Positions 12,669 through 12,833 of a stretch of DNA of 21,304 nt are shown here, piece by piece (the stretch's first letter is position 1; each line of letters opens with the position of its first letter). The translations under genes were made by a program, and so were the position numbers. The stretch comes from a virus (taxonomy: Duplodnaviria > Heunggongvirae > Uroviricota > Caudoviricetes): the IMG/VR virus record IMGVR_UViG_2681813224_000001; one strand, 5' to 3'. The notes under the pieces were generated by a model that saw only the letters and a list, made by a program, of their open reading frames with translations, did not search any database and was not told the DNA's origin.

Positions 12669-12833
12669 ATGAAAAAGCGCGAGGAAGTAAGCAAGCTGCC
12701 TCGCAGACGTGATGCAGCATTAGCGGTTCCCTACAAAAAAGATGAGTTCATAAGCCCTTCTGATGACAAAAAATTTTCAAAGGCGAAAAGTTTTACATCT
12801 ACATCTCTAAAAGATAAATACTTTAAAATCTAG
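12669..12833 (+). CDS. Small basic protein (54 aa), coupled to the kinase stop
   Basis: ATG 2 nt after the kinase TGA; MKKREEVSKLPRRRDAALAVPYKKDEFISPSDDKKFSKAKSFTSTSLKDKYFKI; a terminator follows directly. Below the ORF-track length cutoff. Confidence 0.4.
   Translation: MKKREEVSKLPRRRDAALAVPYKKDEFISPSDDKKFSKAKSFTSTSLKDKYFKI

What the first reader, a model, noticed from the sequence alone, without database searches (positions are those of the whole stretch)
12669..12833. Unannotated 54-aa basic ORF immediately after the kinase
The ATG lies 2 nt after the kinase stop and the ORF ends 1 nt before a terminator hairpin, so it occupies the whole space between kinase and terminator. The protein is Lys/Arg/Ser/Thr-rich (KKREEVSKLPRRRD..., SFTSTSLKDKYFKI). 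It is below the ORF-track cutoff and easily missed.
Basis: seen in the sequence. Interest (0 to 1): 0.45.

Follow-up and report, generated by a model that had tools for sequence, protein, structure and literature searches.

The report
Small protein gene trailing prophage kinase
The 54-codon reading frame after the Shiga-toxin phage kinase gene is a real, selected small-protein gene (933W L0081) that is already in databases as "hypothetical" and always travels with the kinase as the last gene of a three-gene cassette, but what it does has not been tested.

Summary
The ORF is as described: ATG at 12669, 2 nt after the stk stop, and TAG at 12831-12833 abutting a terminator hairpin. It is not unannotated. 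It is 933W L0081 (AAD25426.1, WP_000745483.1, UniProt Q8X4A3, PHROG 4063), named "hypothetical" in every record.

The window is the immunity region of a 933W-type Stx prophage. Homologues in Serratia, Pragia, Salmonella and uncultured phages (36-91% identity) keep the frame. All indels are multiples of three, and pN/pS is 0.13-0.69.

Every intact kinase locus I inspected has the same order: RuvC-like L0083, Hanks kinase Stk, a 50-64 aa basic ORF, then a terminator. The ORF starts -4 to +25 nt from the kinase stop, and in close relatives an AAGGA Shine-Dalgarno sits in the last kinase codons.

The product has pI 10, no membrane segment and no fold of its own. Its conserved core is MKK..P.R[RDE]....A.PY, with an invariant Tyr22.

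My best reading is a kinase-docking regulator or substrate of the Stk abortive-infection cassette. That is inferred, not shown. Three Salmonella prophage loci carry the ORF plus terminator without any kinase, and this is unexplained. No paper found mentions the protein.

The parts
11105..11164 (+). Conserved leader of about 60 nt before L0083; left edge of the mobile cassette
   Evidence: The same sequence (..gtcgcagagatgcggcctgattctaaaataggatataaaaa) precedes L0083 in four different neighbourhoods: the window, L012, L005 and L009/L010. The start coordinate is approximate.
11165..11626 (+). L0083, first cassette gene; a 153-aa protein with a RuvC-like fold that lacks the first catalytic Asp
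   Evidence: PHROG 3875 at 7.8e-91 and a weak Pfam RuvC match. The top 10 PDB fold hits are all RuvC, from a low-confidence model. GVR or GIR replaces the RuvC GID motif in all homologues; the RuvC motif itself is quoted from memory, not tested here. The gene precedes the kinase in every cassette.
11620..12666 (+). stk, a 348-aa Hanks-type protein kinase with a C-terminal domain of about 85 aa of unknown function
   Evidence: Pfam Pkinase at 2.2e-46. Annotated stk in 933W. PADLOC PD-T4-6 and mad6 models match.
12655..12659 (+). Shine-Dalgarno AAGGA for the small ORF, 9 nt before the ATG and inside the last kinase codons (L-K-D-N)
   Evidence: Read from the sequence. AAGGA and its spacing are kept in the window, Serratia, Pragia, L055 and L058/L060, while the kinase stop codon varies among TGA, TAG and TAA.
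12669..12833 (+). The small ORF (933W L0081): 54 aa, pI 10, disordered
12834..12859 (+). Intrinsic terminator (933W tM, lambda tImm): a 6-bp GC stem, 6-nt loop and T-run that abut the stop codon
   Evidence: Found by the scan and annotated as a terminator in 933W and 24B. The same DNA lies at the end of lambda-type rexB in many E. coli genomes. A hairpin is predicted within about 30 nt after the small ORF in 23 of 25 loci, most followed by a T-run, and the stem sequences differ between loci.

Best explanation
Window 12669-12833 is a genuine protein-coding gene, 933W L0081. It is the last gene of a mobile cassette of about 1.75 kb: leader, L0083 (RuvC-like, apparently inactive), Stk (Hanks kinase), L0081, then an intrinsic terminator. 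In 933W-type phages the cassette sits downstream of cI, before N, in the position where lambda carries rexAB.

Shown here: the gene is conserved as a protein. It sits immediately after the kinase gene, with a 2-nt gap and a Shine-Dalgarno inside the kinase 3' end, an arrangement that would allow translational coupling. It diverges at about the kinase's rate. It encodes a 6.3-kDa, strongly basic, soluble peptide with no fold of its own.

Inferred mechanism: the peptide docks on Stk, or on an Stk-L0083 complex, through its conserved N-terminal motif P-R-R-R-D-A-A-L-A-x-P-Y and its C-terminal F-x-S-x-S-L-K-D-K-Y-F-K. There it acts as a substrate-type or pseudosubstrate-type regulatory subunit that sets the activity of the abortive-infection kinase. 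It would either hold the kinase silent in the uninfected lysogen or be its first phosphorylation target.

My probabilities: real protein-coding gene about 0.95; integral cassette component about 0.85; direct kinase partner about 0.4.
For: Coding:
- Homologues at 36-91% identity keep the frame, and all indels are multiples of three.
- Variable sites by codon position are 33, 31 and 49.
- pN/pS is 0.13-0.69. Between L058 and L060 there are 13 synonymous and 6 non-synonymous changes, Fisher p = 3e-6.
- In Pragia the PRRRDAA motif is kept through synonymous codon changes.
- A profile search of 1.84 billion representative proteins finds only proteins of 50-80 aa, so this is not a fragment of a larger gene.

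Cassette:
- L0083, kinase and small ORF occur in this order in E. coli, Serratia, Pragia and IMG/VR loci, in unrelated neighbourhoods: next to an integrase, next to tail genes, next to thrS, and between likely terminase and portal genes.
- The gap between kinase stop and small-ORF start is -4 to +25 nt.
- A hairpin is predicted after the small ORF in 23 of 25 loci.
- Small-ORF identity tracks kinase identity, for example 54% against 56% between the window and Pragia.
- In a local iterative HMM search, the best sub-threshold hits among 3,503 ORFs are exactly the post-kinase ORFs of more distant cassettes.

Expression context:
- The products of L0084 and L0083 were detected in phage 24B lysogens with lysogen-restricted expression (PMC3342100).
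- The Stk protein was detected in EDL933 (PMC11125564).

Partner-type properties:
- pI 10, no hydrophobic segment.
- AF2 gives pTM 0.22 with only short helices.
- Tyr22 is invariant in 22 distinct sequences.
- The position after R-R-[DE] is Ala in most sequences but Ser in L144 and L151. From my own knowledge, this Ala/Ser alternation recalls the pseudosubstrate (RI) and substrate (RII) sites of the PKA regulatory subunits.
Against: - No direct evidence of translation or of any interaction with the kinase. A complex prediction could not be run.
- Salmonella loci L006, L007 and L008 carry the ORF and its terminator downstream of cI with no kinase or L0083. Each has its own Shine-Dalgarno, and DNA homology to the cassette starts 0-5 nt before the ATG. 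So the gene can persist without a cis kinase.
- The position after R-R-[DE] also holds Val (L141) and Met (L153). It is therefore neither strictly a phospho-acceptor nor strictly a blocked site.
- The Stk catalytic loop is HFDIKPNN. It lacks the Glu of the KPEN motif, which in PKA contacts a substrate Arg (own knowledge).
- As I recall the published work (Friedman et al. 2011, not held in the library), Stk is treated as sufficient for HK97 exclusion once HK97 gp68 activates it, and no role for L0081 is mentioned.
- The most distant post-kinase ORFs cannot be shown to be homologous (hhalign E = 0.14 and 0.31).
Confidence: 0.45

Rival explanations
1. L0081 is a real small protein whose function does not depend on Stk. 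For example, it could be a basic nucleic-acid-binding or ribosome-binding peptide, or a factor serving the immunity region. On this reading it merely shares a transcription unit and terminator with the kinase cassette.
For: Kinase-less copies in Salmonella prophages L006, L007 and L008 keep an intact frame, the conserved motifs and their own ribosome-binding sites, with junctions exactly at the start codon. The Arg-rich N-terminus and pI of 10 would suit nucleic-acid binding.
Against: Outside those three loci, every copy found is directly behind the kinase, in many unrelated neighbourhoods. More distant kinase cassettes also carry a small basic ORF at the same place. pN/pS between the two kinase-less alleles is 0.9, which fits relaxed constraint, though it rests on only about 11 changes. 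Kinase-less copies are rare: 4 contigs for P0009 and 1 for P0008.
Confidence: 0.2
2. L0081 is the downstream effector rather than a regulator. Phosphorylation by activated Stk would convert the basic peptide into, or release it as, the growth-arresting agent of the abortive infection.
For: The evidence of co-inheritance is the same as for the best explanation. There are invariant Tyr22, a nearly invariant Tyr51 and conserved Ser44/Ser46. Many small basic peptides are toxic (own knowledge).
Against: The peptide has no membrane segment or known toxin motif. Intact L0081 persists beside broken kinase genes: the pseudogene in E. coli 90-3040 and a split kinase match in L045. It also persists without any kinase. 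None of that suggests a dangerous protein that needs control. As I recall the Stk literature, broad tyrosine phosphorylation of host proteins is the proposed cause of arrest.
Confidence: 0.12
3. Orphan and cassette copies are inhibitors of Stk-type kinases, working as an antitoxin-like safety catch in the cassette. In kinase-less prophages they would act as anti-defence or anti-addiction genes against Stk-carrying residents.
For: This is a sharper form of the best explanation that also accounts for the Salmonella copies. The peptide is disordered and basic, as labile antitoxins often are. [quoted passage not shown]
Against: The orphan copies lie downstream of cI. If they are co-transcribed with cI, they would be made in the lysogen rather than early in lytic growth, when a phage would need an anti-defence protein. 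No toxicity data for stk alone were available to me.
Confidence: 0.15
4. The peptide sequence is irrelevant. Either the ORF exists only so that ribosomes run up to the terminator or stabilise the 3' end of the stk mRNA, or the conserved entity is an RNA or DNA element.
For: The stop codon abuts the hairpin in most loci. From general knowledge, a terminating ribosome can affect how a nearby hairpin forms.
Against: Amino-acid motifs are conserved through synonymous changes and pN/pS is below 1. In Pragia, L138, L153 and L155 the hairpin lies 10-30 nt further downstream, yet the protein is conserved. There is no Rfam match in the region. The RNA fold z-score is only -1.46, and the only helix shared by the minimum-energy and centroid folds downstream of the ORF is the terminator.
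Confidence: 0.04

Closest known systems
933W L0081 / phage 24B vb_24B_12c / UniProt Q8X4A3_ECO57 / WP_000745483.1 / PHROG 4063
   Same: It is the same protein. The window's sequence matches the database entry exactly and is found on at least 1000 contigs. DNA identity to the 933W record is 98.7% over the 301-nt query, and the ORF and its flanks shown are identical in 933W.
   Different: Nothing differs. The database entries carry no function, and no paper I could search mentions it.
Stk abortive-infection kinase of 933W (Tyler & Friedman 2004; Friedman et al. 2011); PD-T4-6 single-gene kinase defence models
   Same: The upstream gene is this kinase. It is expressed in lysogens, and as cited in PMC3681748 it is activated upon HK97 infection and involved in phage exclusion.
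   Different: As far as I recall the papers, and in PADLOC, the system is treated as one gene. Here the kinase is flanked by two co-conserved genes, L0083 and L0081, in every intact locus I inspected.
Pseudosubstrate and substrate inhibitors of eukaryotic protein kinases (PKI; PKA RI with RRxA, RII with RRxS)
   Same: This is a works-like analogy only. L0081 is a short unstructured basic peptide with R-R-[DE]-A, and Ser sits at that position in some homologues. Its gene lies next to a Hanks kinase gene.
   Different: There is no sequence homology. The position also holds Val or Met. The substrate preference of Stk is unknown. Binding has not been tested.
Small labile antitoxins of toxin-antitoxin-type abortive-infection modules
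   Same: It is a small, disordered, co-transcribed partner of a potentially self-harming enzyme. Orphan copies exist, as they do for antitoxins.
   Different: Its gene lies downstream of, not upstream of, the enzyme. It has no DNA-binding domain. Toxicity of Stk without it has not been shown. The cassette has three genes.
Lambda rexA-rexB (immunity-region exclusion genes ending at tImm)
   Same: It holds the same genomic position, after cI and ending at the same terminator DNA before N. Both belong to lysogen-expressed exclusion modules.
   Different: The proteins are unrelated. From my own knowledge, RexB is a membrane protein, whereas L0081 has no hydrophobic segment.

Membership tests
L0081 / PHROG 4063 small-protein family | Full-length sequence match to the family profile | tested here: met
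   PHROG 4063 at E = 2.5e-39, residues 1-54 of 54. Exact match to Q8X4A3.
L0081 / PHROG 4063 small-protein family | Protein-level purifying selection and a preserved reading frame among members | tested here: met
   pN/pS 0.13-0.69, indels in multiples of three, and an excess of third-position variation.
Stk three-gene cassette (L0083, kinase, small ORF, terminator), as defined in this report | Small ORF directly downstream of a Hanks kinase that is itself preceded by an L0083-like gene | tested here: met
   Window coordinates. The same order is seen in more than 20 distinct loci.
Stk three-gene cassette (L0083, kinase, small ORF, terminator), as defined in this report | Physical or functional interaction of the small protein with the kinase | not testable with these tools
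No experimental data were found.
Kinase pseudosubstrate or substrate inhibitor (PKI / PKA R-subunit type) | Basic recognition motif with a fixed non-phosphorylatable (or phosphorylatable) residue at the acceptor position | tested here: inconclusive
   R-R-[DE] is followed by Ala in most sequences, but by Ser, Val or Met in others. Which residue would be the acceptor position is only assumed.
Kinase pseudosubstrate or substrate inhibitor (PKI / PKA R-subunit type) | Binds the active-site cleft and inhibits the kinase | not testable with these tools
   This needs biochemistry or a multimer model.
Type II toxin-antitoxin antitoxin | DNA-binding domain, gene position upstream of the toxin, and autoregulation | tested here: not met
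   No Pfam, PADLOC or PDB domain match. The gene lies downstream of the kinase.
Known RNA families (sRNA or cis-regulatory element in a 3' UTR) | Match to an Rfam covariance model, or a significantly stable conserved structure | tested here: not met
   No Rfam hit in 12600-12900. Fold z-score is -1.46.
Mimic of HK97 gp68 (NinH-like), the reported Stk activator | Sequence similarity to gp68 | tested here: not met
   hhalign E = 0.83 with no aligned stretch. Assigning gp68 to HK97p55 rests on counting genes between the annotated Gp65 and Gp69.
Lambda RexB-like membrane exclusion protein | Multiple transmembrane segments | tested here: not met
   The highest 15-residue Kyte-Doolittle mean is 0.04 and GRAVY is -1.08.

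The most novel reading that the evidence does not exclude
The textbook single-gene Stk abortive-infection system would in fact be a three-component module. L0081 would be a fast-evolving, intrinsically disordered substrate- or pseudosubstrate-type inhibitor that keeps the kinase silent until a phage trigger displaces it. The orphan L0081 copies in kinase-less Salmonella prophages would then be captured inhibitors that act in trans against Stk-type defence, as anti-defence or anti-addiction genes.
Probability: 0.2. Interest if true: 0.65.

Novelty: new variant of a known kind. Interest (0 to 1): 0.42.

Why it matters
Stk of 933W is one of the classic prophage-encoded abortive-infection kinases, and kinase-only models such as PD-T4-6 are used to annotate defence genes. 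The kinase is invariably packaged with a RuvC-like protein and a small basic peptide. If either partner is needed, experiments and annotation that use the kinase alone may miss how the kinase is held in check, triggered or targeted. The peptide is carried by 223 of the 5,426 complete E. coli genomes searched and by 39 phage records, all 933W-type Stx phages. It lies downstream of cI in the region whose upstream genes are lysogen-expressed, so any role in phage exclusion or prophage stability would bear on the ecology of Shiga-toxin phages. The test is cheap: delete 165 bp and assay HK97 exclusion and Stk toxicity.

Tried and rejected
- Pfam, PADLOC and a PDB sequence-profile search for the small protein gave nothing real. 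The only PDB matches are designed TIM barrels at E of 0.025 or worse.
- Rfam on the whole window gives no hit in this region, and the RNA fold is not significant. I rejected an RNA-element reading.
- AF2 on a 13-sequence alignment gives pTM 0.22, so there is no fold to search with.
- GTDB representative genomes: the small-protein scan confirmed no relatives, and the kinase scan returned only two unrelated kinases.
- Literature searches for L0081, the accession numbers, Z and ECs tags, PD-T4-6 and gp68 found no statement about this protein. Tyler & Friedman 2004, Friedman 2011 and Plunkett 1999 are not held.
- The phage 24B RNA-seq supplement lists stk but not vb_24B_12c. The EDL933 proteome table has no entry between N and the kinase.
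- I rejected similarity to HK97 gp68 (NinH-like).
- I considered that the 11-aa N-terminal extension in Salmonella L008 derives from the L0083 leader. There is no DNA support.
- I looked for a promoter in the conserved leader before L0083 and found no convincing -35/-10 pair.
- Homology of the most distant post-kinase ORFs (L100/L166, L101, L159, L161-L164) to L0081 could not be established.

Full report
WHAT IS THERE

The window is the early and immunity region of a 933W-type Shiga-toxin prophage. DNA from 12600 to 12900 is 98.3-99.3% identical to 933W, phage 24B, Min27, Stx2 phage 86 and about 35 other Stx phage records.

In window coordinates the gene order on the + strand is as follows:
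- cI, 9991-10695
- L0084 (DUF3024), 10756-11097
- L0083, 11165-11626
- stk, 11620-12666
- the small ORF, 12669-12833
- a terminator
- nutL and N, with N at 13332-13715

Two bases separate the stk TGA from the ATG, and the TAG is followed at once by CCCGGC-CTCAGC-GCCGGG-TTTTCTTT. An AAGGA Shine-Dalgarno lies 9 nt before the ATG, inside the last stk codons.

The ORF is not unannotated. It is CDS L0081 of the 933W record and vb_24B_12c of phage 24B. It is also RefSeq WP_000745483.1, UniProt Q8X4A3 and PHROG 4063. In all of these it is 'hypothetical'. Some annotations do skip it.

IS IT A GENE?

An open frame of 54 codons has about a 2% chance at this composition, so the case rests on comparison.

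A word-indexed search found homologues in Serratia fonticola (85%), Salmonella (about 70%) and Pragia fontium (54%). A full HMMER pass over 1.84 billion representative proteins found 11 proteins, all 50-80 aa, down to 36% identity.

The codon alignments give four lines of evidence:
- All indels are multiples of three.
- Variable sites by codon position are 33, 31 and 49.
- pN/pS is 0.13-0.69, with Fisher p as low as 3e-6.
- In Pragia the invariant PRRRDAA peptide is encoded by different codons.

There is no Rfam family here. The RNA is not unusually structured (z = -1.46). I conclude that this is a protein-coding gene under purifying selection.

WHAT TRAVELS WITH IT

In Pragia, Serratia, several Logan contigs and IMG/VR viral contigs the ORF is always preceded by an Stk orthologue, and that by an L0083 orthologue. 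In the close relatives the kinase-to-ORF gap is the same 2 nt.

The neighbourhoods are otherwise unrelated. The trio is found after cI with or without L0084, beside an integrase, beside tail-fibre genes and next to thrS.

A leader of about 60 nt before L0083 is conserved across four of these contexts. A hairpin is predicted after the small ORF in 23 of 25 loci, most followed by a T-run, and the stem sequences differ between loci. The unit is therefore a discrete module of about 1.75 kb.

In the window, Serratia, Pragia, L055 and L058/L060 the Shine-Dalgarno AAGGA and its spacing are kept, while the kinase stop codon varies among TGA, TAG and TAA. Small-ORF identity tracks kinase identity, for example 54% against 56% between the window and Pragia.

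I sampled more widely through L0083-like proteins, down to 29% identity. Every intact kinase is again followed, at -4 to +25 nt, by a basic ORF of 50-64 aa.

A local iterative HMM search over all 3,503 ORFs of the fetched loci pulls in the post-kinase ORFs of L153, L154, L156 and L151. The one from L155 ranks top of the sub-threshold list. The most distant post-kinase ORFs (L100/L166, L101, L159, L161-L164) cannot be shown to be homologous. For those I claim only equivalence of position.

THE PROTEIN

The product is 6.3 kDa, with pI 10.0, net charge about +7.5, GRAVY -1.08 and no hydrophobic segment.

AF2 with the family alignment gives pLDDT 71 and pTM 0.22 with only short helices. This fits a peptide that is disordered on its own.

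The conserved core is MKK..P-x-R-[RDE]-x-x-x-x-A-x-P-Y, with Tyr22 invariant in 22 distinct sequences. Within the closer family there is also a C-terminal F-x-S-x-S-L-K-D-K-Y-F-K-[ILM]. The linker between the two motifs is variable and rich in charged residues.

The residue after R-R-[DE] is usually Ala, but it is Ser in L144 and L151, Val in L141 and Met in L153.

There is no Pfam, PADLOC or PDB relative.

THE PARTNERS

Stk has a complete Hanks kinase domain (Pfam at 2e-46) and matches the PD-T4-6 and mad6 defence kinase models.

L0083 is annotated RuvC-like (PHROG 3875). A low-confidence single-sequence model (pLDDT 53) still finds RuvC as its ten best PDB matches. The position of the first catalytic Asp is Val-Arg or Ile-Arg in all homologues, so nuclease activity is doubtful.

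The products of L0084 and L0083 were detected in phage 24B lysogens with lysogen-restricted expression (PMC3342100). Stk protein was detected in EDL933. Stk is cited as an HK97-activated exclusion kinase with little activity in uninfected cells (PMC3681748). The primary papers were not available to me.

MECHANISM

What is shown: L0081 is a selected small protein, positioned for translational coupling to Stk, and it closes a mobile three-gene cassette.

What is inferred: it acts on or with the kinase. The simplest model is a docking peptide of substrate or pseudosubstrate type that regulates the abortive-infection kinase.

Four observations support this. The peptide is disordered and basic. It has an R-R-x-A/S motif and an invariant Tyr. 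It is strictly adjacent to the kinase gene. It diverges in step with the kinase.

Against it, no interaction could be computed. The putative acceptor position is not uniform. As I recall the literature, it treats Stk as acting alone.

THE MAIN ANOMALY

Salmonella prophage loci L006, L007 and L008 carry the ORF plus terminator downstream of cI with no kinase or L0083.

Homology to the cassette starts 0-5 nt before the ATG. Each context supplies its own Shine-Dalgarno: GGAGG in L006 and L007, and an 11-codon N-terminal extension with its own site in L008.

Either the gene has value without a cis kinase, for example as a trans-acting inhibitor or through some independent function, or these are recent remnants. 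pN/pS between the two alleles is 0.9, but it rests on about 11 changes.

COMPARISON AND NOVELTY

The gene itself is already in the databases. Its function is unknown, and I found no paper that mentions it.

What appears to be new is that the Stk kinase is embedded in a conserved three-gene module, and that L0081 is its fast-evolving terminal component. I rate this a new variant of a known kind, a kinase-based abortive-infection system with accessory proteins. Interest is moderate: the test is easy, but nothing mechanistic has yet been shown.

Noticed in passing
Salmonella loci L006:6001-6153, L007:6001-6153, L008:1244-1441: Intact L0081 homologues (50-65 aa) plus a terminator lie downstream of cI with no kinase or L0083. 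Homology to the cassette begins 0-5 nt before the ATG, and each copy has its own Shine-Dalgarno. In L006 and L007 another hairpin sits just upstream of the ORF, and the hairpin after the ORF in L006 is degraded.
   Followed up: partly
window 11165-11626 (L0083) and its homologues in L003, L055, L058, L100 and L101: This protein has a RuvC-like fold, and the top 10 PDB hits are RuvC. The N-terminal strand reads GVR or GIR where RuvC has GID, so the first catalytic Asp is missing in every homologue. It is probably not a resolvase. It is strictly co-conserved with the kinase.
   Followed up: partly
window 10756-11097 (L0084): This DUF3024 protein matches the PADLOC candidate defence family PDC-S43 (4.4e-41). 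It lies between cI and the kinase cassette only in the 933W-type arrangement and is absent from the other cassette contexts. Its product was reported as lysogen-restricted in phage 24B (PMC3342100).
   Followed up: no
L061:2253-3107 (E. coli 90-3040), L045:2953-3995, L158: The kinase gene appears broken in three loci: annotated as an N-terminally truncated pseudogene in L061, matched in two pieces in L045, and split into two shorter ORFs in L158. In L061 and L045 the small ORF downstream is intact.
   Followed up: no
L100:1944-3770 (same contig as L166): A distant cassette (L0083-like, a kinase at 44% identity, and a 64-aa MKK... ORF) sits between what look like terminase large subunit and portal genes of an uncultured phage. 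This is an unusual place for a defence-type insert.
   Followed up: no
L101:3518-3697: The post-kinase small ORF of this distant cassette carries CPFC...CKYC, which is zinc-ribbon-like, around an R-x-A-R-A-L-L-A-N-R-Y stretch that resembles the L0081 core. The similarity is not statistically significant.
   Followed up: partly
window 88-362 and 4981-5179: Rfam gathering-score hits: AgvB anti-GcvB sRNA (88-147, +), STnc100 (149-362, -), C4 antisense RNA (4981-5064, -), isrK (5090-5166, -) and the c4 a1b1 target (5127-5179, -).
   Followed up: no
window 14779-14837: Rfam lambda cIII thermoregulator element, as expected upstream of or within cIII.
   Followed up: no
window 14608-14614: A run of seven N in the supplied sequence (masked or unresolved bases) lies inside the region downstream of N.
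   Followed up: no
window 12831-12900: From the small ORF's stop codon onward the DNA is shared with many other lambdoid prophages. In lambda-type records the 12831-12870 part lies under the end of rexB. The immunity-module junction therefore sits at the last bases of L0081.
   Followed up: partly
PMC3342100 (phage 24B lysogen qPCR): The paper reports expression of its protein P3, one of the two genes downstream of cI (L0084 and L0083), about five orders of magnitude above cI. This hints at a separate promoter or a stability element for the kinase cassette. I found no convincing sigma-70 promoter in the conserved leader.
   Followed up: partly
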